Part shown: one piece after another, positions 14,503 to 46,865 of the stretch
Layout of the letters: every line of letters starts with the position of its first letter
How positions within the stretch are numbered: position 1 is the stretch's first letter
Source: an uncultured Heliomicrobium sp.
Lineage (GTDB): Bacteria; Acidobacteriota; Blastocatellia; RBC074
Reading direction: 5' to 3'
Assembly: GCA_964645355.1 (NCBI GenBank)
Contig: CAZXZU010000002.1
Coordinates: forward strand, 1-59,471
Length of the DNA: 59,471 nucleotides
Made by a program: the position numbers and the translations under genes
The notes under the pieces: generated by a model
The model's database searches: none
What the model saw: the letters and a program-made list of their open reading frames with translations, nothing else
What the model was told of the DNA's origin: nothing

Positions 14503-14526
14503 TTCCGGCGCTACAACGGCGAAAAA

Positions 14527-14563
14527 CAAAAGGCTGAGTCTCAAATGAAGACTCAGCCTTTTG
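14527..14563. terminator. bidirectional rho-independent terminator between convergent htrA and the GH43-like gene
   Basis: aaaaGGCTGAGTCTcaaatgaAGACTCAGCCtttt: an 11-bp perfect stem flanked by an A-run and a T-run. Confidence 0.75.
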
Positions 14564-14587
14564 TTTTATCCACGAACAAAGCCTGAT

Positions 14588-15571
14588 TCAGCGCCCGGCT
14601 TCCACTCCAAATTTGATCAGTTTTTCAGCCACAGCCTTGCTAATTTTCAAAGCCGTGCCGTGACGGAAATCTTTGGGAAACGACAACTGGCCGGAAATGT
14701 CTTCCCACTTCTTCAGGTCTGAAGACTTCATCGCGCCATAACGGTGATCGCGGTATTGATCGAAGTAAACGATCCATTCGTTGCCAACTTTCAATACCGT
14801 AGGCCCTTCGACCCAATCGCGCGTGAACGGTTCAGCCGCCTGGCTGTAAGGGCCTTCGGCTTTGTCGGCAAAGGCAAGCCGCAGATTTTTCTTCACCGGA
14901 TTTTGCCGCTCATCTTTCAACACCATCACGAATTGTTTGCCGTGTCTGAAAACCGTTGAGTCAATCACGTTGAAGCCCGGATCGTAAAAAAGCTTCGTCG
15001 GGCTGAAGGTTTTGAAGTCTTTGGTCGTCACGAAATACACACGATGATTCAAACCGTTGTTGCCGGTCGCTTCGGTTTCGGGAAACCTGCCCGGAATCGT
15101 CGTCGCCCAAAAGATCAGCCACTGCTTTTTGGCTTCGTCGAAAAACAATTCAGGCGCCCACGAATTGCGAGCCGTCGCTTCGTGCGTCATCACAGGAATC
15201 GCTTGCTGCGGAGTCCAGTTGATCAAATCCTTTGAGCTTGAATAGCCTATGATTTTTTCTCGCCAGCCGGTCGTCCAAACCATGTGAAAAGTTCCGTCCC
15301 TGCCCGCGACAATGCACGGATCGCGCATCAGCTTTTCATTGCTGCCAAGCTCCGGCTTCTGAAACGACTTGTCCTGATTCAGCGCCGTCCACTGCAAACC
15401 GTCGCGGCTAATGGCCAGATGCAAACCGTCTTCGCCGTTGCCGCGAAACGAAGTGAACAGATAGTACGGGCGATTGTCAGCAATAGAGCCGACTTCCCTG
15501 CCCGCAAAAATCGCCGCCAACGCAATCAGCGTGGCGGCGACAAAAGCAAAATAAGGTCGAGTGTTTTTCAT
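14588..15571 (-). CDS. GH43-like five-bladed beta-propeller glycoside hydrolase
   Basis: Signal anchor. Motifs MRDPCIV, WAPELFF and WVEGPTVL are spaced as in GH43/GH32-type propellers. Confidence 0.65.
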   Translation of the reverse strand: MKNTRPYFAFVAATLIALAAIFAGREVGSIADNRPYYLFTSFRGNGEDGLHLAISRDGLQWTALNQDKSFQKPELGSNEKLMRDPCIVAGRDGTFHMVWTTGWREKIIGYSSSKDLINWTPQQAIPVMTHEATARNSWAPELFFDEAKKQWLIFWATTIPGRFPETEATGNNGLNHRVYFVTTKDFKTFSPTKLFYDPGFNVIDSTVFRHGKQFVMVLKDERQNPVKKNLRLAFADKAEGPYSQAAEPFTRDWVEGPTVLKVGNEWIVYFDQYRDHRYGAMKSSDLKKWEDISGQLSFPKDFRHGTALKISKAVAEKLIKFGVEAGR

Positions 15572-15591: not shown

Positions 15592-17007
15592 TCAGCGCCT
15601 GACCGCAGTTCGCCGTTTGGTGAAAGCGTTGCGGACGTAATCCCGAATCGAGCTTTGCAGCAGAGGCAATTCGCTTTCGTTCGTGGCGACGACCATCAAG
15701 CTCATGCTGCCCATTTCGTCGAACGAGCCTTCGCCCCAGGTGACGCGCTTCGGCGGCGAACTTGGGTTGTGTGGATTTTCAGCCGTGTTGTCATAAGTGA
15801 TCCTCACATCCAGCCGGGTTCCCTTCGGCAGCGAAACCGCTTCCTTGAATTGATACTGGCCTTGCCAGGCGAAGTCCCAGTCGTTGATCCAAAGCAGTTT
15901 TTTCTTCTCACCGTTCGGCAGCGTCGCCATCAAGTGCATCTGCTTAGCCAGGTAATGAGCATGCGCGCCTGTGCCATAAGCCTTCACATCAACCGGCAAC
16001 ACAAACGAATCCTGAATCGTGTACTCCTTCGCTCCTGGCGGAATGTCCAAACCTTCAAAGACGCCAAACAGCGGAGGCAGTTGAACTCCGGTGAAAGTTT
16101 TGGTCGGGGCTTTGTCGGCGAAGTAAATGCCAACGGTTGAAATCTCTTTTTCGACTTTGCCCGACGGATGGAAGTGAGACGACAAAACCAGATCGGAACC
16201 TTTCGGCAAAAAGTACGCCAGCCCAGCGGGCATTTCCTGCGATTGAGCACCGACCGCCCAACCGCCCAAACTGCCGCCCAGCCGCGCAGCCTGCGCCGGA
16301 GTTGAATTATTGCCCTGCCCTCCTAAACCGAACCGCGCGGCGAAGCGCTGGCCGGTGAAAGCCATGCCTCCGGCAAAACCCGGCTGCGGATCGGCTGCAT
16401 CCAGCTTGCGAGCTTCGCCGGTGGCGTCGCTGAAAAACAAGCTGTGATGAACCACCGTGCGAGCGCCCGGGCGAAATTCAATCGCGCGAACCCATTTGTC
16501 TTCGGTCAGATTCAGCGGCAAAGCGAAGTTGTGGTAAATGTCCGGGCCATCGGCAGGAATGGTAAACGCTTCGCTCATTTTGACTACCAGATCGGGTTTG
16601 CCCAATTGCCAACCTTCGGGAAATTTCGGCATCGCAGGCAGCTTGGCTGGATTGCCTTCGGGCATTCCGGCGGCGACCCATTGCTTGATAGTTTCGATCT
16701 GAGCCGAAGTCAGACGGCGTTCGTGTTTGAATTCGTAATCGCCTTTGTCCGCTTTCCACGGAGGCATCTGCCGCGATTCGGCGACGGTGGCCAGCAGCTT
16801 GCCGCGTTTTTTGGCGTCGGCGTAATTCATCAATGTGAACGGAGCGGCTTCGCCTGGGCGATGACACGACGTGCAGTTGTTGAAGATGATCGGCGCAACG
16901 TGTTCGGTGAAATTGACCGAAGCACTTTCCGCTCGCTTGCTGCTGAAAACTGCAACTCCCAGCACGACAGCCAAAACAAAAAACGATATGAACAACCTGA
17001 TCTTCAT
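15592..17007 (-). CDS. haem c-binding (CxxCH) protein with a copper type II ascorbate-dependent monooxygenase-like domain
   Basis: Signal peptide MKIRLFISFFVLAVVLGVAVF. NCTSCHRPGEAAPF...MPPW. Later VVHHSLFF and GAHAHYLAKQMHLM (H-H / H-x-H...M pattern). ATG 17007 has a GGAG RBS. The track ORF is extended 5' to 17280. Confidence 0.7.
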   Translation of the reverse strand: MKIRLFISFFVLAVVLGVAVFSSKRAESASVNFTEHVAPIIFNNCTSCHRPGEAAPFTLMNYADAKKRGKLLATVAESRQMPPWKADKGDYEFKHERRLTSAQIETIKQWVAAGMPEGNPAKLPAMPKFPEGWQLGKPDLVVKMSEAFTIPADGPDIYHNFALPLNLTEDKWVRAIEFRPGARTVVHHSLFFSDATGEARKLDAADPQPGFAGGMAFTGQRFAARFGLGGQGNNSTPAQAARLGGSLGGWAVGAQSQEMPAGLAYFLPKGSDLVLSSHFHPSGKVEKEISTVGIYFADKAPTKTFTGVQLPPLFGVFEGLDIPPGAKEYTIQDSFVLPVDVKAYGTGAHAHYLAKQMHLMATLPNGEKKKLLWINDWDFAWQGQYQFKEAVSLPKGTRLDVRITYDNTAENPHNPSSPPKRVTWGEGSFDEMGSMSLMVVATNESELPLLQSSIRDYVRNAFTKRRTAVRR

Positions 17008-17035
17008 ACTTTGCTCCTTCGGAACTACATGCTTT

Positions 17036-17623
17036 TCAATTTTGCGCGGTGATGTAACAGCCAATTGTTGAAGTCCGCGCAATGGGAACTTTGCGGTTTT
17101 GCAAAACTGCTTCGAGCGCGTTTCGCAGATCGCGTTCGGTAACAACGCGGCGAGGTTTGCCCAAAGCTTCGTAAAGATTATCAATCCGCCCGCGATAAAC
17201 GATTGCGCCTTTCTGCCCGACGACTGCAACTTCCGGCGTGATCGAAGCTCCGGCGGCGGCAACCAGTTGATGCTTAACATCGTGAATCACCGGAACTCCG
17301 GGCAGGTTGAATTCGCGCCCGTGCTTTTCAATCTCTTTCACCGAAGCCGCCGCGTCAACGTAAACCAAAAAGAAACGAACCGGCTTCGATTTGTAATCCT
17401 GCGCGATGCGAGCGATTTCCGGCGCAAACCGGTTGGAGATCGGGCAATCCTGCAAAATAAAAAACAGCACCGTCGCTTGCTGACCGTCCAGTTTGAAAGG
17501 CGATTGCGAACGCCCGGCAATGTCTTTGATCGTCAGTGAAACATCGGGCACGGTTTGCCGGTCTTGCGCCTGAACGCCAAGCGCGGCAATCGCCAAAAAC
17601 AAACTCAGCAAAACTTTCTTCAT
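17036..17623 (-). CDS. secreted redoxin/thioredoxin-fold protein (single-Cys CPIS motif)
   Basis: Signal peptide MKKVLLSLFLAIAALGVQAQ. ATVLFFILQDCPISNRFAPE has an AhpC/TSA-redoxin-like layout. ATG 17623 lies 8 nt after the upstream stop. Confidence 0.7.
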   Translation of the reverse strand: MKKVLLSLFLAIAALGVQAQDRQTVPDVSLTIKDIAGRSQSPFKLDGQQATVLFFILQDCPISNRFAPEIARIAQDYKSKPVRFFLVYVDAAASVKEIEKHGREFNLPGVPVIHDVKHQLVAAAGASITPEVAVVGQKGAIVYRGRIDNLYEALGKPRRVVTERDLRNALEAVLQNRKVPIARTSTIGCYITAQN

Positions 17624-17631
17624 ACAGTTCA

Positions 17632-18159
17632 TCAGCAAGTCAGTCGCGCGGCAAGCTCTGCAATCACAGCTTCGGCGCGAGCTTCGATTTCCGCTTTGGT
17701 TTGATCCTGAATCGGGTGAGCGACGTAAACCGCGTCAAAATCGCTTCGGCCAAGCGCGCTGGCTTGAGCGCGAGCGGCGGTCATGAATTCCGTCGTAGCC
17801 ACCGGAACCGATGGGATGCCAAGATTTTCCAGCCTCGTTGTGTCGTGCAAACTGCACGTCGTGCAAGACCCTCAATCAGCCAGGGCTTCGATCACGGCGT
17901 CGCATCGCGCCGCCAGCAACTGGTCAATGACTGCTTCAGGCGCGGGTTTGGTGAACGTAGGCTTCATCGCTCGAACGACCGAGGCCACGCCGTAACTTTC
18001 GCGCAGCAATGATTCCAGCCGGTCAAGAAAAACGCTGCCACCGGGTTTGCTGATGTCCAGCAAGCCGATGATTTTTCCGCTCAGTGTGCCGAGCTTCGGC
18101 GCGGCTTTGCGCTGTTCGCGGATGGTTTCATTCAGCGGATTAACGAGTGTGATTGGCAT
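17632..18159 (-). CDS. UGSC-motif selenoprotein (175 aa) with in-frame TGA at 17872-17874
   Basis: Track ORFs 17872-18213 and 17632-17850 share one frame. They are separated only by TGA plus 7 sense codons. Readthrough gives ...EALAD-U-GSCTTCSLHDTTRLENLG.... ATG 18159 has a purine-rich RBS, and the downstream piece has no ATG of its own. Confidence 0.75.
17842..17860 (-). promoter_or_regulatory. candidate bacterial SECIS stem-loop
   Basis: mRNA GACGUGCA-GUU-UGCACGAC: 7 base pairs with one A-A mismatch and a G/U-containing apical loop. It begins 11 nt 3' of the UGA. An overlapping alternative hairpin is UGCAC-GAC-GUGCA. Confidence 0.5.
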
Positions 18160-18174
18160 AAGTCTTTTCCTTTC

Positions 18175-18297
18175 TTCCACGAAGACACACGAAGTAAACA
18201 CGAAGAAAGGCAAAACATACTTGCGCCGCCTTTCATACTGAAAAAACTTTTCAGCCTGTCGAAGCCTTCGTGGTACTTCGTGTGCCTTCGTGGATGA
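18175..18297. repeat. CACGAAG-type palindromic intergenic element, copy 1
   Basis: Left arm has CACGAAG at 18178, 18188 and 18199. Right arm has CTTCGTG at 18266, 18276 and 18286. The arms are inverted. Nearly identical to 46781-46865. Confidence 0.9.
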
Positions 18298-18300
18298 AGT

Positions 18301-19902
18301 TCATTCAATCGGATACGTCACAACTTGGCTGCCGCGCCCGCCAGCCGCCCAACTGCCCACGACGGCGGAAAACTTTCCGGCGGTTCCGCCAGTAACGACG
18401 ATGCGAATCTGTTCCGGCGTGGCGAATTTGCGATAACACTCTTCGCCGTCAATCGTGACTTGCTGGTACATCTTTGTCAGTTGCGAACCTTCGCTGCCGT
18501 CGCCGGTGAATTCTCTGACCGGAATTCCCGTATTTTCAAACAGAAACTGACGAGCCGATTCTTTGGTGAATCCGTCGCGCTCCAAAGTTTTGACGTGCTC
18601 CGGGCACATCAGCACAAAAGCCTCAAACAACATGCACATCCTGTAATTCCAGACCGTAGCCAACGAACGCGAAATCGTCTTCAGAATTGTTTTGCCGTCG
18701 CGGGCGTAATGCTCGCTGACTCCGTGCGGAGGTTCGGCGGCAAACAGCGTGACGGCGCTTTGCTCAGGCTTGAAGCCTTGCTGGACGTGCAGCGGCGTCC
18801 AATCGCTGACTTCTTCGTTTTCGGCAATGCAGTAAGAAAACTTGCCGGGATTGCCCAGCGTGGACATATCAATTTCGCCGGGCTTGGCTCCGCCGATGTT
18901 GGTGATGATTAGCTGAAAAGCTCGGCCAAGCGTGCTGTTCGCTCGCGCGACATTGCTGAGTACGTTGCTACCACAAGCGAAACCGAGTTCTTGCCGAATT
19001 GGCCCGTTGACGACAATCATCGGCGCGGCAAAGTGAGTCGTCGCCTGAACTCCGTGCAGGTTGAACCGTTCGTCGCACACCGCTCGGATCAGAGGAATCA
19101 AAACGCGCATCATCTCCGGCGGACAACCAGCCATCACCGCGTTGGCTGCGATTTTTTCAACGGTCGCTTCGCCGTAGTTCGGCGGCACGCGAGCGATGAT
19201 TTCGTCAGGCAGCAGCTTTGTCGCTTGCAGCATTCGCTCGACTCGCTCAACCGTAGGCGGCACAACCGGCAAGTTGTCGAACTGCAAACAATACTCAAAA
19301 GGATCAACATCGTCGCCGAGTTCAATCCGCGAAGCCCGCTGCCCGCGCTGAGAATACAAATCCACTGCCGCAGCTTCCGTTCCCGCGCCTTCACCTTCCA
19401 GATGCCGCGAAGTGCAACCGGGCTTTGATTTCGGAGCGCCGTCGAATTCTTCGGCAATGATGACCGGTTCAATGCCGGTCATTTCGCATAACTTCGCGGC
19501 AATCGCGTTCAGCTCAGCTTTGTCAAAAGCGATTTCGGTCAGCGCGACTTTGCCCGCCGCATCCACCAAAAACAGCGTAGGCACAGCCACAGGATCGTAT
19601 TGCCGAGTCACAGCCAAATCGCCGTCCAGCACGACCGGGAAATGGACATTCATCTGCCTGACAAACTCTCGCGTCGCGGCTTCGCTGTCTTGAGAAACGC
19701 CGATGATCTCGGCGGAATCTGGCCGGATGGCTTTGGCCAGCTTGTTCAGGTAAGGAAACGTCAAACGGCAAGTCGGACAATCCGTCTCGAAGAAAACCAG
19801 CAGCGCCGGTTTAGGCTTCGCACCCAAACCGGCATAACGCAGTGATTTCCCATCAAGGTCAAACAGTGAAAATGATGGAGCTTGTTCGTTGATTGACAAC
19901 AT
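18301..19902 (-). CDS. thioredoxin-fold (CPTC) domain fused to a large C-terminal domain of unknown function
   Basis: N-terminus QAPSFSLFDLDGKSL...LLVFFETDCPTCRLTFPYLNKL is TlpA/redoxin-like. About 370 aa of unassigned C-terminus (..PVVPPTVERVERML..ANAVMAGCPPEMM..). ATG 19902 lies 2 nt after the radical SAM stop. Confidence 0.7.
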   Translation of the reverse strand: MLSINEQAPSFSLFDLDGKSLRYAGLGAKPKPALLVFFETDCPTCRLTFPYLNKLAKAIRPDSAEIIGVSQDSEAATREFVRQMNVHFPVVLDGDLAVTRQYDPVAVPTLFLVDAAGKVALTEIAFDKAELNAIAAKLCEMTGIEPVIIAEEFDGAPKSKPGCTSRHLEGEGAGTEAAAVDLYSQRGQRASRIELGDDVDPFEYCLQFDNLPVVPPTVERVERMLQATKLLPDEIIARVPPNYGEATVEKIAANAVMAGCPPEMMRVLIPLIRAVCDERFNLHGVQATTHFAAPMIVVNGPIRQELGFACGSNVLSNVARANSTLGRAFQLIITNIGGAKPGEIDMSTLGNPGKFSYCIAENEEVSDWTPLHVQQGFKPEQSAVTLFAAEPPHGVSEHYARDGKTILKTISRSLATVWNYRMCMLFEAFVLMCPEHVKTLERDGFTKESARQFLFENTGIPVREFTGDGSEGSQLTKMYQQVTIDGEECYRKFATPEQIRIVVTGGTAGKFSAVVGSWAAGGRGSQVVTYPIE

Positions 19903-19904
19903 AA

Positions 19905-20888
19905 TCAAACCTTTTGTCTTGCCCGTATTTTCCTGGCAGTTTTTCCCACTTGATCCGACAGATTGAAGATATGCCGCAACGGGATCAAGTTCATCAGGCG
20001 ATAATCACCAACGGCGCTCAACCCGGCTGAAGCCATGCATCCGCACTGCGAACAATCGGGATTGCCGCCAAATTGGCAGGGCGTAACCTTGCTTTTCAAA
20101 TCCGCCGTCAGGTTCAGCGTCGTGCGAGCGAAAATGCATTCTTCGGGCGATGCCGGAGGCGAAAGATAACCTTTAATCACAGAATCGGGTAACTCCAGCT
20201 TTGGAAAACTAGCTCGCAATCCGGCCAAATCGGCCAGCACTTCAGAACGCTGAGCCGGTGAAAGTATCTCTTCTGCCTCCGCACCCATCTGAGGCGTAAA
20301 GAGGCTGAACCATACCTTTCTGACTTCCTGCTTTTCCGACCAGAAGGACAGGAAATCTTTTAAATAATTCTGCCGCTCGGCTATCTGGCTGGTTATGGTG
20401 CAATGCACCGTAATCGAATGTCCAACGATATTTTGCAGTATCCGATCATAAGTTGCGGGGCTTCTTCTGGCATCGTGTTCCGGCTGCAATCCGTCAATGG
20501 AAACAACCATCAACAGGTTTTTGATATTGGCCCAGGGCTTCGGAATTTCACGTACCGCGCTGGTCACAAGTTGAACCGTAATCCCTCTGTCGCTGAGTTG
20601 CGGCAACAAAGTATCCAACTCACGAAACCTGACCAGAGGTTCTCCGCCAACGATGGAAAGATGCAGCGGGCGATGACGATCCATCAACGCCAGGACTTCA
20701 TCCACCAACTGCTGCCCCTTGAAATCCGACAGCGTTCTCAGCGGCCCAAGCTGATGAAGATGCTCAGGTTCATACGCGTAACATCCAGGACAGCGCAACG
20801 GACATTCGCGCGTGATTTCAATCGAAAGCGAAGGATAATCCCCGTGCAGGATTTTTCCCCAGGCTCGTAATACATCAATGCTTTTCAT
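19905..20888 (-). CDS. radical SAM enzyme with a Cys-rich C-terminal auxiliary motif
   Basis: CPLRCPGCYAY is a CxxxCxxC cluster. GGEPL follows. C-terminal TPCQFGGNPDCSQCGCMASAG resembles SPASM/twitch or HpnH-type C-termini. Confidence 0.85.
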   Translation of the reverse strand: MKSIDVLRAWGKILHGDYPSLSIEITRECPLRCPGCYAYEPEHLHQLGPLRTLSDFKGQQLVDEVLALMDRHRPLHLSIVGGEPLVRFRELDTLLPQLSDRGITVQLVTSAVREIPKPWANIKNLLMVVSIDGLQPEHDARRSPATYDRILQNIVGHSITVHCTITSQIAERQNYLKDFLSFWSEKQEVRKVWFSLFTPQMGAEAEEILSPAQRSEVLADLAGLRASFPKLELPDSVIKGYLSPPASPEECIFARTTLNLTADLKSKVTPCQFGGNPDCSQCGCMASAGLSAVGDYRLMNLIPLRHIFNLSDQVGKTARKIRARQKV

Positions 20889-21094: not shown

Positions 21095-24000
21095 TTATAC
21101 GCACTTCGAGAATCCGCAGTCGCGGCAGGTGTAACAGCCGCCAGCGTACTCAATCTGGTTGCTGCTGCATTCAGGGCAAGCGGTTATGACTTTCTTCGAA
21201 TCAATCATCACAGGTTTGATCGGGACGACGTTGGTTGTTGACGGTAGAGACGCAAAATTTTGCGTCTCTACTTTTCCGGCGGTTTGAGCCATTGCCAGCT
21301 TGGCGGCTTCGCGTGCGGAATCGGGTTGCTGCATCAAACGGCGCTTGGTCAGCATGATGCATTCGGCCACGACTTGTTCGGGTGAAGTGCATAACCGAGC
21401 GTTGAACCAGATCGAATGATTGCCGATGACCTTGTTCAAGCTGGCCGCGACTTCTTCGGGTTCGAATCCGCCGCGCAGCATCTTCGACGCCAGCAAGCCG
21501 ACTGAAACCGAAAGACCTCCGCCGGTGGCAAAAACTTCCAGCACTCGCGCGCCATCGTGATTGATCGTGACGTAAAGGTTTTGGTGATCGAACGAAACCT
21601 GCCAGGTTGAACCGGACAGTTCGCGCGGTCGTTCCAAACGCGGCAAGGTTTCGTGAACGGCCAAAGCGTTTTGATGAATTGCCTGAGCGGCTTCCGGCCC
21701 GGTTTCAACCCTCGTTTCAATTTTGACTTCAGGTTTGGCTTCGGCTTTTTGCTCGACAGGTTTTTCGGCGCTGACGGCGGTCAGCACTTGATTATCGCGC
21801 GAACCGTCGCGGTAATAACTGACGGCTTTGACGCCCATTTTCCAAGCCAGCCGATGCACGCGGTCGGTGTCCGCAACCGAATAACTGGCGGGCGCGTTGA
21901 CCGTTTTCGAAATCGAATTGTCCACGTTATCCTGAAAAGCTTTCAGCACACGCAGATGATGATCCGGGTCCAGCGTCATCGCATCAACAAAGTATTCCGG
22001 CAGTTTGTCGCGGTTTTCAACGATGTAAGTGGAGGCGCGTTCAATCGAAGCCGGATCGGATTGGTCGAGTTCGATACCCAAAGCTTTGGCTGCAATCGGG
22101 TGCGCGTAAGTGCGCGTGCCCAGCGTGTCGCGGCGAACGTAAGCGTACGAAAAATTCGGTTCGCAGCCGGAACTGGTTTCGGCTACCAGAGAAATCGTGC
22201 CGGTTGGCGCAACAGTCGTGACTTCGTAATTGCGCGGAGTCAGCGGGATCGAACGGTCAAGACCGACTTCGTTGTAAAGCAGGTCTTCGTAAAGATTGCG
22301 GTTCGGCTCGAATTCGGGCATCGCGCCTTTTTCAGCGCCCAGCGCCAGCGAAGCCAGCCAGGATTCTTTGCGGAAAAAGTCCATCATCTTGTCCGCCAGC
22401 AAAGCTGATTCTTCGCCGCCGTAACTGACGCGTTTCTGCAAACACAGATCGGCAAATCCCATAATGCCAAGTCCAACCGGGCGAGTGCGATGAACTGTGT
22501 CGTGAATCTGAGGCAGCGGCCAATCGCAAGTGTCAATCACGTTGTCCAGAAAGCGCACAGACCAGTAAATGTCTTTTGAAAAACCTTCCCAATCAACATC
22601 GTCGGTCGCTTCGTCGTAATACTTGGCCACGTCAATCGAACCCAGATTGCAGGCGTTGTAATCGTGCAGCATTTGTTCGGCGCAATTGTGAACAACGATG
22701 CCATTAGCAATGAACGAATGCGTGAGCGGTTCAGTCAAATCGAATACATCCTCTTCGCCATCTGGAATTACTATTTGAACAGTGGCTTCAAAGTGTTCTT
22801 GATTCGGCGTGCGCTTACGATTGGCAATAATGGTGTTCAGCTTTTCCTGTTTGGCAGTAGTCAAAAATCCGACTTCCTGAGCAAAGGTTTCCAGATTCAC
22901 CTTTGAAAAATGCAGTTCGTGTCGGGCTTGGGTTTGATAAGCCCGCGAACCGCCTTTGCCGTCAGGCAAAATAGTTTCTCCGGCCTGATGGCGATTCAGG
23001 TAAACCGTCGAAGCAATGCCAAAATTGAGCAGCAGTTGCTGAACCCCGTTTAGCAACGTTTCCGAAGTTGATGTCAGACGAACATGGTTGCCTTTCAGTG
23101 CATCCACATGAACAGTTCCATCGGCTGAAAACAGACCTTGTAAAAAACCGCGCTGGGTTTCTTCATTCCCACGCCATACGCAATCAGGAACAACCAACTT
23201 AGCTGCCCCCACGCCAAGTCCGCATTGCTCGGCAAGAATGTGAAGGCGCTCTGATTGGACGCGGGCTTCGCGGCGGTCTTCAATCCAGGAGACTTTGTTG
23301 AAATATGGGCGCGGAGCCTTAGTCAACGGCGCGGCCAATTCCGTCACGTATTTGGCAAACTGCTCTGCAATTTCAGCGTCATCGCCAAAGAAAGAGAGCA
23401 CGGCTTTTCCGTTCGTCATCGTGCCATCGCCGACCAACCATCCCATCACACGCCCTAATTCAAGCGAGCCTGCAGTGCCAAAGCCGCCCTTGCGATTCAG
23501 GATGTGAAGCTTGTCTCCCGGTTGCAAATCCTGCAATTCGATCCAGCCACGCGAAGTCATAATCTGATGATTGCCAGTTGCTCGCAGTGTGTAGCCTTCG
23601 GCAGTCATCAGACGGAAAACGGGCTTGCGGCCAGTCCAAAAGACAGAAGAGGCTTGAGAAGTTTTTTGTTCGTGTCCAAAACGACCGTCAATCACAGCTT
23701 CAACATCACGCTGTGAGTTAAACAACTCGCTTGCCGTGAAGATACCTTCGCCCGTGAAAATCCTGGTATCTCCAGTCACACATGGATTCGACGCCTTCTT
23801 CAATCCCATCGAATTCATCAGCGGGTTATGGCGGTTGACGTTGTCAATGAAGATGATGCCCGGCTCAGCCCAGCGATGCGTCGAAGAAATGATTCGCTCC
23901 CAAATGTCCGGCGCGAAAACCATTCCGGGTTTTGGCGGCTTCTGGCCTTTGAAGGTGTATTCGCCGCCCTCGCCACTTTCTGAATTGGCGGCTTTCGGAT

Positions 24001-24721
24001 CGAAGATAGCCATTTCCCACGGCTTGCCGTTGAATTCGGTGTGAAACCATTCGTTGTTTTCTACGGCTTGCAGAAATTTGTCGCTGACCGTGACTGAGAT
24101 GTTGAAGTTGGTCAGGCTCTTCTGGTCGTTCTTGGCGTGGATGAAGCGCAGAATGTCGGGGTGGCCAACGGCCAGAATTCCCATGTTCGCGCCGCGACGA
24201 ACTCCGCCCTGTTTGACGGTTTCGGTCATCGTGTTGACGATCTGCATGAACGAGATCGGGCCTGAAGCCATTCCGCGACCTTCGCCGACAGGCGTACCAG
24301 CCGGACGCAGCCGTTCGTAAGTCATCCCGGTTCCGCCGCCGGATTGATGAATCAGCGCGCAGTATTTGGCGTGCTCCATGATTCCGTCCAGCGAATCAGG
24401 CACCGGCAGCACGAAACAGGCCGCCAACTGGCCTTTGGGTTTTCCGGCGTTCACCAAACAAGGCGTGTTCGGGATGAAAGCGCGTTCGTGCATCAACCGC
24501 AGCATATTGAGCATGAACTCTTCGCGGCGGCGTGGGTCGGTTTCGGCTTTGGCCACGTGAGAAACAACCCGCCGGGTGATGTCATCCCAGGTTTCCAGCG
24601 GATTGCCTTGCAGGTCTTTCAGTGAATAGCGTTTGGCAACAACACGCTGCGCGTTTATGCCTAACGGGGTTTTGGTTGCGGGGCTGGCAAATTGAACGAT
24701 CTGTTGTCTGCTTGCGCTCAT
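21095..24721 (-). CDS. nrdJ: class II (adenosylcobalamin-dependent) ribonucleotide reductase carrying one intein and a C-terminal Zn-ribbon
   Basis: N-terminus AKRYSLKD...[21 protein letters not shown]. Active-site ASNP-C...-CAEQML is split by the intein. C-terminal part has a TSCPD-like segment, then CPEC...CYTCRDC. Confidence 0.9.
22685..23782 (-). mobile_element. 366-aa intein with a LAGLIDADG homing-endonuclease domain (residues 314-679 of NrdJ)
   Basis: Block [10 protein letters not shown]. Block [19 protein letters not shown] motifs GWLVGDGTM and [14 protein letters not shown]-terminal [10 protein letters not shown] followed by +1 Cys (CAEQ). Sampled lines are about 40-47% GC against about 57% in the exteins. 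Confidence 0.88.
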
Positions 24722-26181: not shown

Positions 26182-27642
26182 TTACACCAGCACTTCACGG
26201 ATGATTTGACCGTGAACATCGGTCAGACGGAAGTCTCGCCCCTGGAAACGATAAGTCAGTCGCTGATGATCGAAGCCCAGTTGATTCAGCAGCGTCGCGT
26301 GCAAATCGTGAACATGCGTGCCGCCTTCCGTCACGCCAAAGCCCAGTTCGTCCGTTTCGCCATGCAAATAACCGGGCTTGAATCCGCCGCCCGCCACCCA
26401 CAACGTAAACCCTTCGATGTGGTGATCGCGTCCGGTGGTTTCGCGGACTTCACCCATCGGAGTCCGCCCGAATTCTCCGCCCCAAACAACTATCGTGTCT
26501 TCCAGCAAGCCGCGCTGTTTCAGGTCAAGCACAAGCGCGGCGCTGGCCTGGTCAACTTCGCGGCAACGGGCTTCTATGTCTCCGTCAAGATTGTTGCCGC
26601 GTTCGCCGTGATGATCCCAGTCGGTGTGATAAAGCTGCACAAAGCGCACGCCGCGTTCGATCATTCGCCGCGCCAGCAACGCATTCGCCGCAAAGCCCGA
26701 CTCGCCCGGCTTCACGCCATACAACGCCAGCGTGGCGTCAGATTCCTTGCGCAAATCCATCAGATCGGGCGCGCTGGTTTGCATGCGAAAAGCCATTTCG
26801 TAAGCGTTCAACCGCGTCAGGATTTCAGGGTCGCCGGTTTGTTCGTGCCGCGCTTTATTGAGCGCGCCGACCGTGTCGTAAAAATCGCGTTCCTGTTCGC
26901 GTCCGAGTCCTGCGGGGCTTTGCAGGTTCAAAATCGCATCGCCTTGTCCGCGAAACGGCACGCCCTGAAACGAGGTCGGCAAAAAGCCGCTGCTCCACAA
27001 GGTCGAACCGGCACGGGGGCCGCGTCGCCCGCTTTGCAACACGACGAAGCCGGGCAAGTCTTTCGATTCGCTCCCCAATCCATAAGTCACCCACGCGCCG
27101 AACGCCGGACGACCGGGGATTTGAAAGCCCGTGTTCATAAACAGCTTCGCCGGGCCGTGGTTGAACACATCCGTAGACATCCCGCGCAGCCAGCAAACTT
27201 CGTCTACAATCTTGCGATGGTGCGGCAGCAATTCGCTCAGAGTCATTCCGCTTTGCCCGTAACGCGCAAACTGACGCTTCGTGCCCAGCAGCGTTTCATT
27301 GCCTTTCAGAAAGGCGAAGCGCCGGCCTTTCATCAAACTTGGCGGCGGCGGTTGCCCGGTCAATTCACGCAGCTTCGGTTTGTCGGAAAACAATTCCAAT
27401 TGCGAAGGCGCTCCGGCCATAAACAGATAAATCACCCGCTTGGCTTTGGCAGGAAGCGGCGCTTTGCGCGGTGCCATAGGGTTGGTCGGATCAATCTGTG
27501 GGCGCTGTGGTGCGCCTTGTGTTTCGCCAGCCAGCAGACAGTTTAGTGCGATGGAACCCAGTCCGACCGCGCATTGTCCGAAGAAATGACGGCGCGTTGT
27601 ATCGCGCAATTCGTTTGAAAGTAGAGTTTTCATATTTTTCAT
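26182..27642 (-). CDS. DUF1501-family (sulfatase-like) protein with a Tat signal
   Basis: TRRHFFGQCAVGLGSIAL twin-arginine leader. Conserved ...LFMAGAPSQLELFD.KP..., DWDHHG and GGEFGRTP motifs typical of DUF1501. Confidence 0.85.
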   Translation of the reverse strand: MKNMKTLLSNELRDTTRRHFFGQCAVGLGSIALNCLLAGETQGAPQRPQIDPTNPMAPRKAPLPAKAKRVIYLFMAGAPSQLELFSDKPKLRELTGQPPPPSLMKGRRFAFLKGNETLLGTKRQFARYGQSGMTLSELLPHHRKIVDEVCWLRGMSTDVFNHGPAKLFMNTGFQIPGRPAFGAWVTYGLGSESKDLPGFVVLQSGRRGPRAGSTLWSSGFLPTSFQGVPFRGQGDAILNLQSPAGLGREQERDFYDTVGALNKARHEQTGDPEILTRLNAYEMAFRMQTSAPDLMDLRKESDATLALYGVKPGESGFAANALLARRMIERGVRFVQLYHTDWDHHGERGNNLDGDIEARCREVDQASAALVLDLKQRGLLEDTIVVWGGEFGRTPMGEVRETTGRDHHIEGFTLWVAGGGFKPGYLHGETDELGFGVTEGGTHVHDLHATLLNQLGFDHQRLTYRFQGRDFRLTDVHGQIIREVLV

Positions 27643-27671
27643 TGAAAGCGAAATGTGTGGAAACCCGACCA

Positions 27672-28871
27672 CTAACCAACCAGAAGCCGATTCATAATCT
27701 CAGCAAAAGCCGGATTGAAAATGAGTCTTCCTCCGTTATCGCTATTGGTCAAAATAATGAATCCTGATTTTCGGTTCACCGACGCCATGGCAAGCGAGCG
27801 AAACCCTGTTTGCCCTCCTGAATGCAGGATCACCTTTCCGGTTTTCCGCTGCTGTATTGCCCAGCCCAACGCCCAGGTGTCTGCGTCATCAATTTTCTCT
27901 CCCTCGGCGAGCTTTATTTGCGGACGGAGCATTTCCTGATGACTCTTTTTATTCAGCCGAAACGCATCGCTCGCTTTTGGGTCAAGGACTTCGATCAGAA
28001 ATTTTGCGTAATCGGATGGCGTGGTGTGTAACCCTCCCACGGCGGCGTACCTGGCGGCATCCGTTTCGGTCGGCTTCGCTTTGGTCAAAGGTTTCCCCGC
28101 GACATCGTGCGGGCGCGCCGCGTGTTTGGCGAAGCTGTCGTTCCAGACATACCCGCTGGAGTGCATGCCAAACGGCCTCAGCAGATTTCGCCTCAGATAC
28201 GAATCAATATCTGTCGCGCAAACCTCCAGGTCAGCCTCGTATTTAGAACAGTGCTTGCGGTTTTCCCGCCCCGCTAAATGGCTTATCACCGATTGCAAAT
28301 AACAATAACCCTCGCCCGAATAGAGAAATTTTTCGCCGGGCGTGAAATGGATTTTCAAAGGTTCACGTCCCGAACGAAAGTCTTGAAAGCCTGATGTATG
28401 TGAAAGCACGTGACGGGCAGAGATGAGTTTCAGCCGAGCATCGCCTTCCAGAAATGGCTTCGGCGCGTATTTGGTCAGCGGCGTATCAAGGCCGATGACA
28501 CCCTTTTCACACAGCTTCAGCGCGGCATAAGCAAATACCGTCTTGCTGACCGAAGCCGCTTCAAACACGGTGTCTTTATCAACGGGTGCTTGCGTCACGC
28601 TGTCTTTCACGCCAAAGCCCCGACGCCAAAACAATTTCGCATCTTTGATAACAGCGATGGAGGCTCCCGGAACGATGAATTCTTCCATAAGTTTTGGAAC
28701 CAGCTTCTCCAAATCAGCAATCAGGGTTTCCTCGAAATTGTCCTGTCTCAATTCGGGAAGCCGGCGATTCCTTTGTTCAGGGAACAACGAAAATCCCAAA
28801 GCCGCTTGGCCGCCCATCACTAAAAATTCTCTTCGTAGCTGCTTATTGTAGCGAGACATAAATGTTTTCAT
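27672..28871 (-). CDS. serine hydrolase, beta-lactamase/transpeptidase-like family
   Basis: S-x-x-K motif AASVSKTVFAYA. Tat-like leader RREFLVMGGQAALG. Its ATG overlaps the lactonase stop (ATGA at 28868-28871). Confidence 0.8.
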   Translation of the reverse strand: MKTFMSRYNKQLRREFLVMGGQAALGFSLFPEQRNRRLPELRQDNFEETLIADLEKLVPKLMEEFIVPGASIAVIKDAKLFWRRGFGVKDSVTQAPVDKDTVFEAASVSKTVFAYAALKLCEKGVIGLDTPLTKYAPKPFLEGDARLKLISARHVLSHTSGFQDFRSGREPLKIHFTPGEKFLYSGEGYCYLQSVISHLAGRENRKHCSKYEADLEVCATDIDSYLRRNLLRPFGMHSSGYVWNDSFAKHAARPHDVAGKPLTKAKPTETDAARYAAVGGLHTTPSDYAKFLIEVLDPKASDAFRLNKKSHQEMLRPQIKLAEGEKIDDADTWALGWAIQQRKTGKVILHSGGQTGFRSLAMASVNRKSGFIILTNSDNGGRLIFNPAFAEIMNRLLVG

Positions 28872-36100: not shown

Positions 36101-36261
36101 GGCCCGTGGCAATAGAAACAACGGTCGGAAAAAATCGGGCGAATGTCGCGGTTGAATTGCACGTCTTGCGCCGCTTTTACAACGGGGGTTGGCGCATTCC
36201 AGGTTAAGCAAATTGCTGAAACGACCAGCAACAGACTCACACAGAGTTTCAATGGTTTCAT
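33172..36261 (-). CDS. DUF1549/DUF1553 protein with an N-terminal haem c motif (PSCyt/PSD type)
   Basis: Signal peptide MKPLKLCVSLLLVV. DRCFYCHGPDEKNRKAGLRLD. The central and C-terminal regions are typical of DUF1549/DUF1553. The track ORF is extended to 36384. Confidence 0.85.
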   Translation of the reverse strand: MKPLKLCVSLLLVVSAICLTWNAPTPVVKAAQDVQFNRDIRPIFSDRCFYCHGPDEKNRKAGLRLDTFEGATKDRGGYRAITPGKPDESELLKRVTSHEAGVMMPPASAKKPAVTAAEAELLRRWIAQGAKYEGHWAFQPLAKLQPPVVKNAKWVRNGIDNFILARLESVGLLPSPQADARTLIRRVSLDLTGLLPSPAEVEAFVKAFEKTTPRQQDAAYSALVERLLASPHYGERWGRHWLDQARYADSNGYTIDGERVMWPYRDWVIQALNEDKPFDRFTIEQMAGDLLPNASDPLKAKSQLVATGFHRNTVINEEGGVDPEQARVEQVMDRVSTTGAVWLGLTIGCAQCHTHKFDPITHKEYYRMLAFFNSTLDVNNQGPVVPVQRGEMFGKPETNAEPAVARGRQMPIGELKQGDWERLEIARLERNPAVTATKKEVEWVSFDPVKFDTEAAGKLQRLADGSFLITSNASVNDAYRILVRIASPRVAAVRLRVLPHEGLPKNGPGLAADGSFALSEFYIDSEGGRHGFNDAFADNEQRAYPARSASDGDRRTGWSLSGNQSHEAVFVYTQPKTFASRQIQFVMRHEADAGRGIGHFKIEIATETPHDARGAALLAALKLPLNARSPEQQTMVNAAFASARAVREKQSGNAVMAMVMRDTNLPRESYIFTRGDFTRPDKAAGMLQPGVISAIAPQLPEKPPETGKPRTRLDLAEWLVNPANPLTPRVTMNRIWMRYFGRGIVETEEDFGTQGTPPTNPELLDWLSGEFIRQGWSLKAMHRLIVTSATYRQSSEFTPQSATPNPQSIDPRNLLLSRQERFRVEAEIVRDAALSASGLLNPKIGGPSVRPPQPDGVYAFTQNRKNWTTAAGNERFRRALYTHFYRSAPYPLFTTFDSPDFQQVCTRRFRSNTPLQSLTLANDPAFLEIAQGLAARLVREVPGEFAVVLDARLKHAFALCFSRPPSATELADLRNYVERQAQGFASQPATAAALVNKELTKAGLTEAQSAALTAAARVLFNTDNFITRE
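33840..33867. repeat. heptanucleotide tandem repeat ATTGCGG x4 (imperfect) inside the DUF1553 CDS
   Basis: attgcgg attgggg gttgcgg attgcgg. This is the reverse complement of the 5757-5784 unit. Encodes ...PQSATPNPQSI.... Confidence 0.85.
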
Positions 36262-36361
36262 AACAGGCTCGCGGTAATGGGTTTCAACGATGATTGTCAG
36301 GCGCGGAGTAAGAACAACAACTTCAATGCGAAGCCGGTGTAGTTCAACAGCGTTTAAGAAG

Positions 36362-42426: not shown

Positions 42427-42601
42427 CACCGCGTTAGCGGTGGTTGAATTTAGCCGTGGATGAAACCCACGGGGAGCAAGCCCAATTTACCCACGTCGCG
42501 TCAGCGACGATTGAGTTCAGGCGTCGCTGACGCGACGCGGAGGCTCTTCTTGCTTACCCGGCGTTGAAACGCCGGGCTAATTTCAACCGTCGCTCCGCGA
42601 C
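42427..42601. repeat. cluster of TTGAAT-tailed REP hairpins (five or more units)
   Basis: CACCGCgttaGCGGTG-GTTGAATTT-AGCCGTGGATGAAACCCACGG; CGTCGCgtcaGCGACG-ATTGAGTT; GCGTCGCtgacGCGACGC; CCCGGCGttgaaaCGCCGGG; AATTTCAAC-CGTCGCtccGCGACG. Confidence 0.85.
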
Positions 42602-42703
42602 GAAGAACAGGCCGAGCAGTTACGAAGAATCAAGATTGGGACTGAAGTGCTTTCCGACTTCTTTCCTGCTTTGCGTCTTTGCGGCTTTGCGTGAGCCTGT
42701 TTC

Positions 42704-46780: not shown

Positions 46781-46865
46781 TTCCACGAAGTCACACGAAG
46801 TTTCACGAAGAAAAGCAAAATCACCTATTTCCACTTCGTGTTTCCTTCGTGTGCCTTCGTGGATA
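46781..46865. repeat. CACGAAG-type palindromic intergenic element, copy 2
   Basis: CACGAAG at 46784, 46794 and 46804. CTTCGTG at 46834, 46845 and 46855. Same orientation and same position (just 5' of a minus-strand start) as copy 1. Confidence 0.9.

What the first reader, a model, noticed from the sequence alone, without database searches (positions are those of the whole stretch)
15592..20888. Compact operon pairing a radical SAM enzyme, a thioredoxin fusion, the Sec protein, a redoxin and a haem/Cu-monooxygenase-like protein
Five co-directional genes are packed with minimal spacing:
- Radical SAM stop to thioredoxin-fusion ATG: 2 nt.
- Sec-protein stop to redoxin ATG: 8 nt.
- Redoxin stop to the haem c/Cu-monooxygenase-like ATG: 28 nt.
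- GH43-like gene: 20 nt further, ending at a strong terminator.

The only larger gap (18160-18300) is filled by a palindromic repeat. The redoxin plus haem/Cu-monooxygenase-like pairing recurs in other genomes as far as I know. I do not know a described function for an HpnH-like radical SAM enzyme coupled to a thioredoxin-fold fusion with a roughly 370-aa unassigned domain and a UGSC selenoprotein.

Inference: an uncharacterised selenium-dependent thiol/redox or protein-maturation module in which the small Sec/Cys-rich protein (U-G-S-C-T-T-C) is either the redox carrier or the radical SAM substrate.
Basis: inference. Interest (0 to 1): 0.7.

Follow-up and report, generated by a model that had tools for sequence, protein, structure and literature searches.

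The report
UGSC selenoprotein and its conserved partner enzyme
Only two of the tightly packed genes belong together: a known selenoprotein of unknown function (UGSC) and an unannotated partner domain, here fused to a thioredoxin-like domain; the radical SAM, redoxin, haem protein and glycosidase genes are neighbours only in the closest relatives.

Summary

The proposed five-gene selenium/radical-SAM module is not supported. In 105 related loci, radical SAM, redoxin and haem-protein homologues appear only in the two closest relatives. One of those has other genes in place of the radical SAM gene. Both have an acetyltransferase inserted after the UGSC gene and lack the GH43 gene.

The conserved unit has two genes:
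- A 340-aa domain with no Pfam, NCBIfam or PDB match (here called TrxC), fused in the window to a CxxC thioredoxin-fold domain.
- The UGSC (seleno)protein (NF041046/PF24696).

Support for the pair:
- All 16 genome loci seeded on UGSC carry TrxC next door, in Alphaproteobacteria and haloarchaea.
- 56 of 71 evaluable loci seeded on TrxC carry UGSC, 54 of them 0-337 nt downstream; 50 show UGA.
- Single-chain fusions exist in both orders.
- A SECIS-like hairpin is conserved with compensatory changes.

UGSC has been catalogued since 2007-2008 with no known function. My inference is a thioredoxin-driven reductase that works like glycine/proline reductase selenoprotein B, substrate unknown. The redoxin and haem-protein genes form a separate pair.

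The parts
19905..20888 (-). Radical SAM enzyme, 327 aa, with a CxxxCxxC motif and a C-terminal Cys cluster. It is a neighbour, not part of the conserved unit.
   Evidence: PF04055 scores 35.8 bits (cut-off 29.5). Every NCBIfam hit is far below its cut-off; HpnH scores 27.7 against 225. Among 105 related loci a homologue is found only in L024. There is no PDB sequence match.
19498..19902 (-). N-terminal thioredoxin-fold domain of the fusion protein (TlpA/ResA/AhpC-TSA-like, DCPTC motif). No signal peptide by eye.
   Evidence: PF00578 scores 80 bits and PF08534 scores 69 bits over residues 4-130. NCBIfam ResA scores 69.8 bits, below its cut-off of 170.
18301..19326 (-). C-terminal 340-aa domain of the fusion protein, here called TrxC. 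It is unannotated and has invariant Cys in the NAVMAGC and FS(Y/F)C.AENE motifs. It is the conserved partner of UGSC. The coordinates include the stop codon.
   Evidence: - No Pfam, NCBIfam or PDB sequence match.
- AF2 model: pLDDT 84.5, pTM 0.84.
- No PDB fold match: best E 3e-3, TM about 0.2.
- 4,739 clusters at 50% identity with E <= 1e-3.
- Adjacent to UGSC in 16 of 16 genome loci.
- UGSC is present on the same strand in 56 of 80 metagenome loci seeded on TrxC.
18172..18298 (.). REP-like palindromic repeat filling the gap between the fusion and UGSC genes.
   Evidence: The 25-nt arms are 92% complementary. The RNA fold is -65.6 kcal/mol, z = -8.2. A second copy lies at 46782-46863. The same motif sits in the same gap in L023, L026 and L018. 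L024 has only a 13-nt gap there and no copy of the motif.
17632..18158 (-). UGSC family selenoprotein, 175 aa, with Sec at residue 96 in the motif LAD-U-GSCTTCS.
   Evidence: NF041046 scores 152.1 bits (cut-off 125) and PF24696 scores 160 bits. Cys-form homologues align across the UGA. A homologue model has pLDDT 90.3 and a flavodoxin/Rossmann-like fold.
17872..17874 (-). UGA selenocysteine codon.
   Evidence: It is in frame. The same codon is present in 50 of the 80 TrxC-seeded metagenome loci.
17842..17860 (-). SECIS-like hairpin. The 6-bp core is CGUGCA/UGCACG, extendable to 8 bp, with a GU(U/G) loop. The core starts 13 nt after the UGA.
   Evidence: It is the RNAalifold consensus. In 44 distinct sequences, 86.6% of cells are paired against 5-57% for slid controls. 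Three pairs show changes on both sides, and 0 of 500 shuffles reach the observed covariation score.
17036..17623 (-). Redoxin, 195 aa, exported by eye. It forms a separate pair with the next gene.
   Evidence: PF08534 scores 39.5 bits. Among related loci a homologue is found only in L023 and L024. A redoxin gene also precedes the haem-protein homologue in Chondrinema litorale.
15592..17007 (-). Protein of 471 aa with a CTSCH haem c motif and, by eye, an N-terminal signal-like sequence. Similarity to the Cu2 monooxygenase C-terminal domain is weak.
   Evidence: No Pfam or NCBIfam hit reaches threshold. PF03712 gives E 0.015 at 15.2 bits, below its cut-off of 23. There is no PDB sequence match. 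A 34% identical homologue sits next to a redoxin gene on a Bacteroidota plasmid.
14588..15571 (-). GH43-like glycoside hydrolase with an N-terminal signal-like sequence by eye. It is a lineage-specific neighbour.
   Evidence: PF04616 scores 40.5 bits (cut-off 32.2). The gene is absent from L023 and L024, where the HtrA gene directly follows the haem-protein gene.
14523..14567 (.). Hairpin terminator between the convergent GH43 and HtrA genes. I infer that it acts in both directions.
   Evidence: A 20-bp perfect stem followed by a U run; -46.2 kcal/mol, z = -6.5.

Best explanation
The functional unit is two genes, not five or six.

**The unit**
- Gene 1 encodes a cytoplasmic thioredoxin-fold domain (DCPTC motif). 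A linker with a conserved PGC.SR motif joins it to a roughly 340-aa domain of unknown fold. I call this domain TrxC. It may be the 'Unknown_1' domain of the 2008 GOS paper.
- Gene 2 encodes the UGSC selenoprotein. It is a flavodoxin/Rossmann-like alpha/beta protein with its U-G-S-C redox motif between a strand and the start of a helix.

**Proposed mechanism (inferred)**
1. Reducing equivalents reach the CxxC of the fused thioredoxin-fold domain. The likely source is NAD(P)H through a thioredoxin-reductase-type enzyme.
2. The CxxC reduces the selenenylsulfide of UGSC, which is docked on TrxC.
3. The selenolate attacks a substrate bound or activated by TrxC. The invariant TrxC residues include two Cys, a His and an AENE motif.
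4. The UxxC cysteine resolves the adduct and re-forms the Se-S bond.

This is the working logic of selenoprotein B in glycine and D-proline reductase, but with a non-homologous substrate subunit and an unknown substrate.

**The other genes**
The radical SAM, redoxin plus haem c protein, and GH43 genes may be co-transcribed in this strain. They are still functionally separate neighbours. The redoxin and haem c protein form their own exported pair.

**Shown versus inferred**
- Shown: gene pairing, single-chain fusions, the Sec codon and SECIS-like hairpin, and the lack of conservation of the other genes.
- Inferred: the direction of electron flow, the catalytic role of TrxC, and the chemistry.
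For: **Pairing seeded on UGSC**
- All 16 genome loci with Cys-form UGSC (Alphaproteobacteria, haloarchaea) have a TrxC homologue (37-46% identity) immediately adjacent.

**Pairing seeded on TrxC**
- 56 of 80 metagenome loci (TrxC 40-94% identical) carry UGSC on the same strand, 54 of them 0-337 nt downstream.
- 9 of the 80 are cut too short to judge, so 56 of 71 are evaluable positives.
- 50 of the 80 show UGA at the U position.

**Single-chain fusions**
- TrxC-UGSC fusions P0283, P0297 and P0305 end exactly at the Sec codon.
- P0290 is fused in the order UGSC-TrxC.

**Thioredoxin link**
- Independent lineages carry an N-terminal CxxC thioredoxin-fold domain and the PGC.SR linker.
- In L003 a thioredoxin-reductase-like gene directly precedes the fusion gene.

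**Similarity to selenoprotein B**
- 9 of 15 UGSC members weakly hit GrdB (TIGR01917, best E 4.6e-5), 6 hit GrdF, 6 hit TIGR01918 and 3 hit GrdH.
- For the window protein these hits fall on the Sec-bearing region of those profiles, positions about 328-380.

**Sec codon**
- The SECIS-like hairpin is conserved with compensatory changes.

**The other genes are not linked**
- Radical SAM, redoxin and haem-protein homologues occur only in L023 and L024.
- 49 metagenome loci have at least 1.2 kb upstream and none has a radical SAM homologue.
- Neighbours differ in L017-L019, L021 and L025.
- Unbiased clustering of neighbours found no third conserved partner.
Against: - No biochemical data exist for either protein.
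- The similarity to GrdB is far below family cut-offs (18.9 bits against 602) and Pfam GRDB does not hit.
- TrxC has no recognisable catalytic fold and no cofactor motif that I could identify, so 'enzyme' is an assumption.
- A thioredoxin-reductase neighbour occurs in only 1 of 105 loci.
- 15 of 71 evaluable TrxC loci have no UGSC within reach, and L020 has UGSC without TrxC. The pairing is strong but not obligate in cis.
- The tight spacing (2 nt, 8 nt) makes co-transcription with the radical SAM and redoxin genes likely in this strain. A strain-specific functional link cannot be excluded by comparative data alone.
Confidence: 0.6

Rival explanations
1. All five or six genes form one selenium-dependent thiol/redox or protein-maturation module, in which the radical SAM enzyme modifies or matures the UGSC protein or works with the fusion protein.
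For: The genes are co-directional with 2-28 nt gaps, so co-transcription is plausible. The radical SAM gene is adjacent to the fusion gene with the same 2-nt gap in L024 and on contigs that encode the identical radical SAM protein. The radical SAM protein has a C-terminal Cys cluster, as peptide-modifying enzymes do.
Against: - A radical SAM homologue is present in 1 of 105 related loci, and in 0 of 49 metagenome loci with at least 1.2 kb upstream.
- The closest relative, L023, has a helicase/HNH gene and a Uma2 gene there instead.
- A GNAT gene separates the UGSC and redoxin genes in both close relatives.
- No SPASM or RRE domain was detected.
- UGSC is a well-folded 175-aa alpha/beta protein.
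- By eye, the downstream proteins are exported while the fusion and UGSC are cytoplasmic.
Confidence: 0.05
2. The pair is an antioxidant system. The fusion protein would be a peroxiredoxin- or TlpA-type peroxide or disulfide reductase, and UGSC merely its selenium-containing electron carrier. TrxC would serve as a regulatory or oligomerisation domain rather than as a substrate-specific catalytic subunit.
For: The N-terminal domain matches AhpC/TSA and Redoxin. Databases name the protein 'peroxiredoxin' or 'TlpA family'. Reviews group UGSC with thiol-oxidoreductase-like selenoproteins (PMC2398784, PMC13188914). In the Acidobacteria loci sampled the pair lacks consistent metabolic neighbours.
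Against: - Many family members lack the thioredoxin-fold domain altogether but keep TrxC and UGSC: the haloarchaea and sphingomonads have forms of about 350 aa. TrxC, not the redoxin domain, is therefore the constant partner.
- TrxC is the most conserved part: about 72% identity across Acidobacteria, with more than 50 invariant positions across the 30 sequences of alignment A4, down to 36% identity. That fits an active site better than a scaffold.
- The DCPTC motif is of the reductase (TlpA/ResA) type.
Confidence: 0.15
3. UGSC and TrxC work on sulfur or selenium trafficking, or on metal or metalloid handling (for example persulfide or selenide transfer, or detoxification), rather than reductive cleavage of an organic substrate.
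For: Both proteins have invariant Cys/Sec residues. Several uncharacterised prokaryotic selenoproteins are proposed to bind metals (PMC13188914). No pyruvoyl-proprotein partner was detected.
Against: No conserved neighbours point to sulfur, selenium or metal pathways. The recurrent though weak neighbours in Proteobacteria and haloarchaea are catabolic enzymes and transporters: acyl-CoA dehydrogenase, SDR, thiolase, luciferase-like monooxygenase and TctA.
Confidence: 0.12

Closest known systems
UGSC-containing (seleno)protein family (NCBIfam NF041046, Pfam PF24696; Zhang and Gladyshev, PMC1976440 and PMC2398784)
   Same: The window protein scores above both curated cut-offs. It has the U-G-S-C motif, an in-frame UGA and a SECIS-like hairpin. 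[quoted passage not shown]
   Different: The gene itself is an ordinary member. What goes beyond the papers I could search is the near-universal adjacency to the TrxC domain across Acidobacteria, Alphaproteobacteria and haloarchaea, and the frequent thioredoxin-fold fusion. The predicted fold is flavodoxin/Rossmann-like, not the 'likely Trx-like fold' stated in 2008. I could not verify that 'Unknown_1' is TrxC, because the figure is an image.
Selenoprotein B of glycine/sarcosine/betaine/D-proline reductases (GrdB/GrdF/GrdH/PrdB; TIGR01917, TIGR01918)
   Same: Both have a UxxC motif. There is weak but recurrent similarity confined to the Sec-bearing region (9 of 15 UGSC members). Both are small or modular Sec subunits that work with a separate substrate-binding subunit. 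Glycine reductase also depends on a thioredoxin system (established knowledge).
   Different: Scores are far below the cut-offs, and Pfam GRDB (PF07355) does not hit. TrxC did not match any Pfam or NCBIfam family, so no GrdE/PrdA-type pyruvoyl proprotein was detected. No GrdA, GrdC or GrdD homologues turned up among the conserved neighbours. UGSC is much shorter (175 aa against about 240-435 aa).
Thioredoxin-fold fusion enzymes that carry their own reductant domain (for example AhpF-type or Trx-MsrA/B fusions)
   Same: A CxxC thioredoxin-fold domain is fused to the module it presumably reduces. Stand-alone versions in other lineages presumably use free thioredoxin.
   Different: The fused partner domain is uncharacterised and has no fold match in the PDB. 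A separate Sec protein is part of the unit.
Radical SAM/SPASM peptide maturase cassettes, including selenoprotein-linked ones such as SbtM and TrsS
   Same: A radical SAM gene lies next to a Cys/Sec-rich protein gene.
   Different: Matches to SbtM (22 bits against 350) and TrsS (19 bits against 490) are noise-level. No SPASM domain hit was found. There is no conserved co-occurrence, and UGSC is not peptide-like.

Membership tests
UGSC family (seleno)protein (NF041046 / PF24696) | Whole-protein HMM score above the curated cut-off | tested here: met
   NF041046 scores 152.1 bits against 125; PF24696 scores 160 bits against 25.
UGSC family (seleno)protein (NF041046 / PF24696) | U/C-G-S-C motif, with Sec encoded by an in-frame UGA | tested here: met
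   The motif LAD-TGA-GSCTTCS lies at 17874..17872. Cys aligns at this position in Cys forms. The same UGA is present in 50 related metagenome loci.
UGSC family (seleno)protein (NF041046 / PF24696) | Bacterial SECIS-type hairpin just downstream of the UGA | tested here: met
   A 6-8 bp stem with a GU-containing loop starts 13 nt after the UGA. It is conserved and shows compensatory changes in 44 sequences. Actual Sec insertion is not testable with these tools.
Glycine/D-proline reductase selenoprotein B (TIGR01917/TIGR01918, PF07355) | HMM score above the cut-off over the whole protein | tested here: not met
   TIGR01917 scores 18.9 bits against 602; TIGR01918 scores 13.9 against 65.45. Only the Sec region matches. 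PF07355 does not hit.
Glycine/D-proline reductase selenoprotein B (TIGR01917/TIGR01918, PF07355) | Pyruvoyl proprotein partner (GrdE/PrdA) encoded alongside | tested here: not met
   The conserved partner is TrxC, which matches no Pfam or NCBIfam family at E <= 10 apart from isolated chance hits.
HpnH adenosyl-hopene transferase (TIGR03470) | HMM score above the cut-off | tested here: not met
   27.7 bits against 225, and only the radical SAM core (residues 21-168) matches.
Radical SAM superfamily (PF04055) | Radical SAM core domain with a CxxxCxxC motif | tested here: met
   PF04055 scores 35.8 bits against 29.5. The motif C-PLR-C-PG-C is visible in the translation.
Radical SAM/SPASM peptide maturase cassette | SPASM/twitch domain hit and conserved co-occurrence with its substrate gene | tested here: not met
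   Pfam lists no SPASM hit. All maturase models score at most 37 bits against cut-offs of 170 or more. Co-occurrence with UGSC is seen in 1 of 105 related loci.
TlpA/ResA-type thiol-disulfide oxidoreductase (N-terminal domain of the fusion) | Thioredoxin-fold domain with a CxxC motif | tested here: met
   PF00578 scores 80 bits and PF08534 scores 69 bits. The DCPTC motif is present. The ResA model scores 69.8 bits against 170, so this places the domain in the superfamily, not in ResA itself.
Copper type II ascorbate-dependent monooxygenase (PHM/DBH; PF03712) | HMM score above the gathering threshold | tested here: not met
   PF03712 scores 15.2 bits against 23, E 0.015. There is no PDB sequence match. 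HH and HxH motifs are visible by eye only.
   Only the TrxC-UGSC pair is conserved. The redoxin and haem-protein genes are conserved as a separate pair.

The most novel reading that the evidence does not exclude
TrxC and UGSC together are a previously uncharacterised, very widespread two-subunit reductase found in Bacteria and Archaea. It would use selenocysteine (or cysteine), be driven by thioredoxin, and have a catalytic subunit with a fold not represented in the PDB. It would carry out a Grd/Prd-like reductive cleavage of an as yet unknown, common metabolite. That would finally give a function to one of the most abundant environmental selenoprotein families.
Probability: 0.3. Interest if true: 0.75.

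Novelty: new member of a known kind. Interest (0 to 1): 0.45.

Why it matters
[quoted passage not shown] A 2026 review still classes it as uncharacterised.

Three results turn 'unknown selenoprotein' into a testable two-component reductase hypothesis:
- UGSC almost always travels with, or is fused to, one specific unannotated domain of about 340 aa. That domain family has about 4,700 clusters at 50% identity and no Pfam, NCBIfam or PDB relative.
- The domain is often fused to a thioredoxin-fold module.
- Cys-form pairs exist in sphingomonads and haloarchaea, groups for which cultured isolates are available.

The result also removes a misleading lead, the radical SAM coupling, and argues for a Pfam/NCBIfam model for the partner domain.

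Tried and rejected
- **Radical SAM coupling.** Looked for radical SAM, redoxin, haem-protein and GH43 homologues in 105 related loci with tblastn and phmmer. They occur only in the two nearest relatives.
- **A third conserved partner.** All-against-all clustering of ORFs within about 4 kb of the pair gave only antisense shadow ORFs and common families (SDR, acyl-CoA dehydrogenase, enoyl-CoA hydratase, luciferase-like monooxygenase) in inconsistent positions. A thioredoxin-reductase-like neighbour occurs only in L003.
- **Assigning TrxC to a known family.** Pfam and NCBIfam at E <= 10 on five diverse members, phmmer against the PDB, and Foldseek of a good AF2 model against the PDB all gave nothing. 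The weak Foldseek hits (fumarate hydratase, cyanuric acid hydrolase) have TM about 0.2 and are not used.
- **UGSC against the PDB.** By sequence: nothing. By fold: only generic flavodoxin, CheY and lumazine-synthase-like hits.
- **'Unknown_1' of the GOS paper.** I could not verify that it equals TrxC, because the supplement figure is an image.
- **Source contig.** The window's fusion protein with the ATG start is not on record. The identical radical SAM protein is on short Hainich groundwater metagenome contigs, two of which show the start of the following gene in the same arrangement.
- **Genome scan.** The degenerate pattern cannot match TGA, so the scan returned only Cys forms. Sec forms were recovered through the look-up of encoding contigs and the metagenome scan seeded on TrxC.
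- **Structure of the window's own UGSC.** The 54%-identical Cys form P0003 was modelled instead.

Full report
**1. Observation**

| Gene | Coordinates | Gap to the previous gene |
|---|---|---|
| Radical SAM | 20888..19905 | - |
| Thioredoxin-fold fusion | 19902..18301 | 2 nt |
| UGSC | 18158..17632 | 142 nt |
| Redoxin | 17623..17036 | 8 nt |
| CTSCH haem protein | 17007..15592 | 28 nt |
| GH43-like | 15571..14588 | 20 nt |

- The UGSC reading frame contains an in-frame TGA at 17874..17872.
- The 142-nt gap holds an inverted repeat with 25-nt arms. It folds at -65.6 kcal/mol, z = -8.2.
- A 20-bp hairpin followed by a U run lies at 14523-14567, after the GH43 gene.
- An Acido-Lenti-1 RNA in the window, the names attached to the homologues and contigs encoding the identical radical SAM protein point to an acidobacterium, probably Blastocatellia, from groundwater.

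**2. What the proteins are**

- **Radical SAM protein.** It matches only the generic PF04055 model. Every specific model, including HpnH, SPASM maturases, SbtM and TrsS, is far below its cut-off.
- **Fusion protein.** It has an AhpC/TSA/Redoxin domain (residues 4-130, DCPTC motif). The roughly 390 residues after that domain have no Pfam, NCBIfam or PDB sequence match; the conserved TrxC domain is the last 340 of them.
- **Small protein.** It is a bona fide member of the UGSC (seleno)protein family. NF041046 scores 152 bits against a cut-off of 125, and PF24696 scores 160 bits.
- **Redoxin.** A Pfam Redoxin domain, with a signal-like N-terminus by eye.
- **471-aa protein.** It has a CxxCH motif and only sub-threshold similarity to Cu2_monoox_C (15 bits against 23).
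- **Last gene.** A GH43 family member.

**3. The Sec codon is real**

- Cys-form homologues align straight through the UGA.
- Sec-form loci share the motif LAD-UGA-GSCTTCS.
- In 44 distinct sequences, a hairpin with core CGUGCA/UGCACG and loop GU(U/G) starts 13 nt after the UGA.
- 86.6% of cells are paired, against 5-57% for slid controls. Three pairs show changes on both sides, and 0 of 500 shuffles reach the observed covariation score.

**4.

*Seeding on UGSC.* All 16 genome loci (Alphaproteobacteria and haloarchaea, Cys forms) carry a homologue of the fusion's C-terminal domain, TrxC, directly beside UGSC. None carries a radical SAM, redoxin, haem-protein or GH43 homologue.

*Seeding on TrxC.*
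- 56 of 80 metagenome loci (40-94% identity) have UGSC on the same strand. In 54 of them it lies 0-337 nt downstream.
- 9 loci are cut too short to judge, and 15 truly lack UGSC within reach.
- 50 loci show UGA.

*Radical SAM, redoxin and haem-protein homologues.* They were found only in L023 and L024, whose fusion proteins are 94% and 90% identical to the window's.

*The two close relatives.*

| Locus | Gene order |
|---|---|
| L024 | RNR, radical SAM, fusion, UGSC, GNAT, redoxin, haem protein, then HtrA on the opposite strand |
| L023 | helicase/HNH, Uma2, fusion, UGSC, GNAT, redoxin, haem protein, then HtrA on the opposite strand |

*Relatives at 60-87% identity.* These have unrelated flanks, including Uma2, an ADP-forming acetyl-CoA synthetase/GNAT fusion, an acyl-CoA dehydrogenase, DinB, and a protein of 355 aa with no Pfam hit on record.

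*Other partners.* Unbiased clustering of neighbours found no third conserved partner.

The five-gene module is therefore local synteny. Only the TrxC-UGSC pair is conserved.

**5. Fusions**

The 50%-identity representative library holds 4,739 TrxC-related clusters with E <= 1e-3.
- Some are TrxC-UGSC single chains that end exactly at the Sec codon (P0283, P0297, P0305).
- One is in the order UGSC-TrxC (P0290).
- One is a tandem TrxC-TrxC protein (P0302).

The 2008 GOS paper mentions a 'UGSC/Unknown_1 fusion' (PMC2398784). That is probably the same association, but I could not verify it.

**6. Structure**

- TrxC models well: pLDDT 84.5, pTM 0.84. It has no PDB fold relative; the best Foldseek hit has E 3e-3 and TM about 0.2.
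- A Cys-form UGSC (P0003, 54% identical) models at pLDDT 90. It is a five-unit beta-alpha flavodoxin/Rossmann-like sandwich.
- Its C/U-G-S-C motif sits between strand 3 and the N-terminus of helix 3. This is not a canonical thioredoxin fold.

**7. Mechanistic inference**

- The only recurrent non-self similarity of UGSC members is to the Sec region of selenoprotein B. Of 15 members, 9 hit GrdB, 6 hit GrdF, 6 hit TIGR01918 and 3 hit GrdH. All hits are far below the family cut-offs, so this is a lead on how UGSC works, not family membership.
- Independent lineages fuse a CxxC thioredoxin-fold domain to TrxC through a conserved PGC.SR linker.
- One locus has a thioredoxin-reductase-like gene directly upstream.
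- TrxC is the most conserved component: about 72% identity across Acidobacteria, with more than 50 invariant positions, including two Cys, across the 30 sequences of alignment A4, which go down to 36% identity.

I therefore propose a thioredoxin-driven, Sec-dependent two-subunit reductase. In this model TrxC binds or activates the substrate and the UGSC selenolate does the chemistry. The substrate is unknown.

**8. The other genes**

- **Redoxin and haem c protein.** They are adjacent again on a Chondrinema litorale (Bacteroidota) plasmid, with 34% identity for the haem protein.
- **GH43 gene.** It is absent from both close relatives.
- **Palindrome.** It belongs to a dispersed REP-like family. 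A second copy lies at 46782-46863. The same motif occupies the same gap in L023, L026 and L018. L024 has only a 13-nt gap there and no copy of the motif.

**9. Verdict**

- The gene set is not one functional module.
- The UGSC gene is an ordinary member of a known but uncharacterised selenoprotein family.
- The useful residue is the strong evidence for a specific, unannotated partner domain, with multi-domain and reciprocal pairing, and the reductase hypothesis that follows from it.

Noticed in passing
window 18172-18298 and 46782-46863; L023 3377-3565; L026 2267-2459; L018 about 3097-3114: A REP-like palindromic repeat family with the motif CCACGAAG-N-CAC(A/G)CGAAG on both arms. It occurs twice in the window and sits in the same fusion-UGSC intergenic gap in several relatives. 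L024 has only a 13-nt gap there and no copy of the motif. It could be an insertion hot spot or an mRNA-processing or stability element between the two genes.
   Followed up: partly
window 15592-17623; L106 3255-5308 (Chondrinema litorale plasmid NZ_CP111057.1): The redoxin gene and the 471-aa CxxCH protein are adjacent in an acidobacterium and in a Bacteroidota plasmid (34% identity for the larger protein). This is an independent two-gene unit with no Pfam model for the larger protein. HH and HxH motifs are visible by eye, and similarity to Cu2_monoox_C is sub-threshold.
   Followed up: partly
L029, L044, L046, L051, L052, L055-L057, L060, L061, L063, L076, L086, L091, L094: Fifteen TrxC loci with at least 600 nt of downstream sequence have no UGSC gene anywhere in the fetched DNA. 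Seven of them (L044, L046, L052, L057, L076, L091, L094) share an MreB-like neighbour, which suggests one lineage in which TrxC works without a cis-encoded UGSC.
   Followed up: partly
P0302, P0323, P0367, P0378, P0386 (709-741 aa): Long proteins that match TrxC in two to four stretches. P0302, the one I read, carries two tandem TrxC domains. This hints that the domain may work as a dimer or pseudo-dimer.
   Followed up: no
L020 8001-8582; L021 8001-9697; L022: In one acidobacterial lineage a 355-aa protein with no Pfam hit on record follows UGSC. In L020 the fusion gene is missing and a Uma2 gene and a restriction-modification-like gene lie upstream, so the pair seems to have been disrupted by an insertion.
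   Followed up: no
P0001, P0004, P0006: Some database translations show G or R at the Sec position (ADGGSC, ADRGSC). I suspect the G cases are UGA read under an alternative genetic code by the metagenome gene callers. They should not be counted as non-Sec, non-Cys variants.
   Followed up: no
window 21095-24721 (minus strand): A 1,208-aa ribonucleotide reductase-like ORF lies directly upstream of the radical SAM gene. By eye it contains an intein-like insert (C...HNC boundaries). Its C-terminus is syntenic in L024 (85% identity) but absent from L023.
   Followed up: partly
window 42557-42602 (+): Acido-Lenti-1 sRNA (RF01687, 50.2 bits against a gathering score of 37). It is the only Rfam hit in the window. 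ARAGORN found no tRNA or tRNA-Sec genes in the window.
   Followed up: no
window 26182-27672 and 33172-36384 (minus strand): A DUF1501 protein and a PSCyt1/PSCyt2/PSD1 (DUF1549/DUF1553) cytochrome-domain protein are both encoded in the window, a few kb apart. This is unrelated to the finding.
   Followed up: no
L107-L109: The identical radical SAM protein is on short contigs from Hainich (Hain_H51) groundwater metagenomes. On L108 it is followed by the start of the thioredoxin-fold fusion gene, as in the window. This suggests the window's organism is a groundwater acidobacterium.
   Followed up: no
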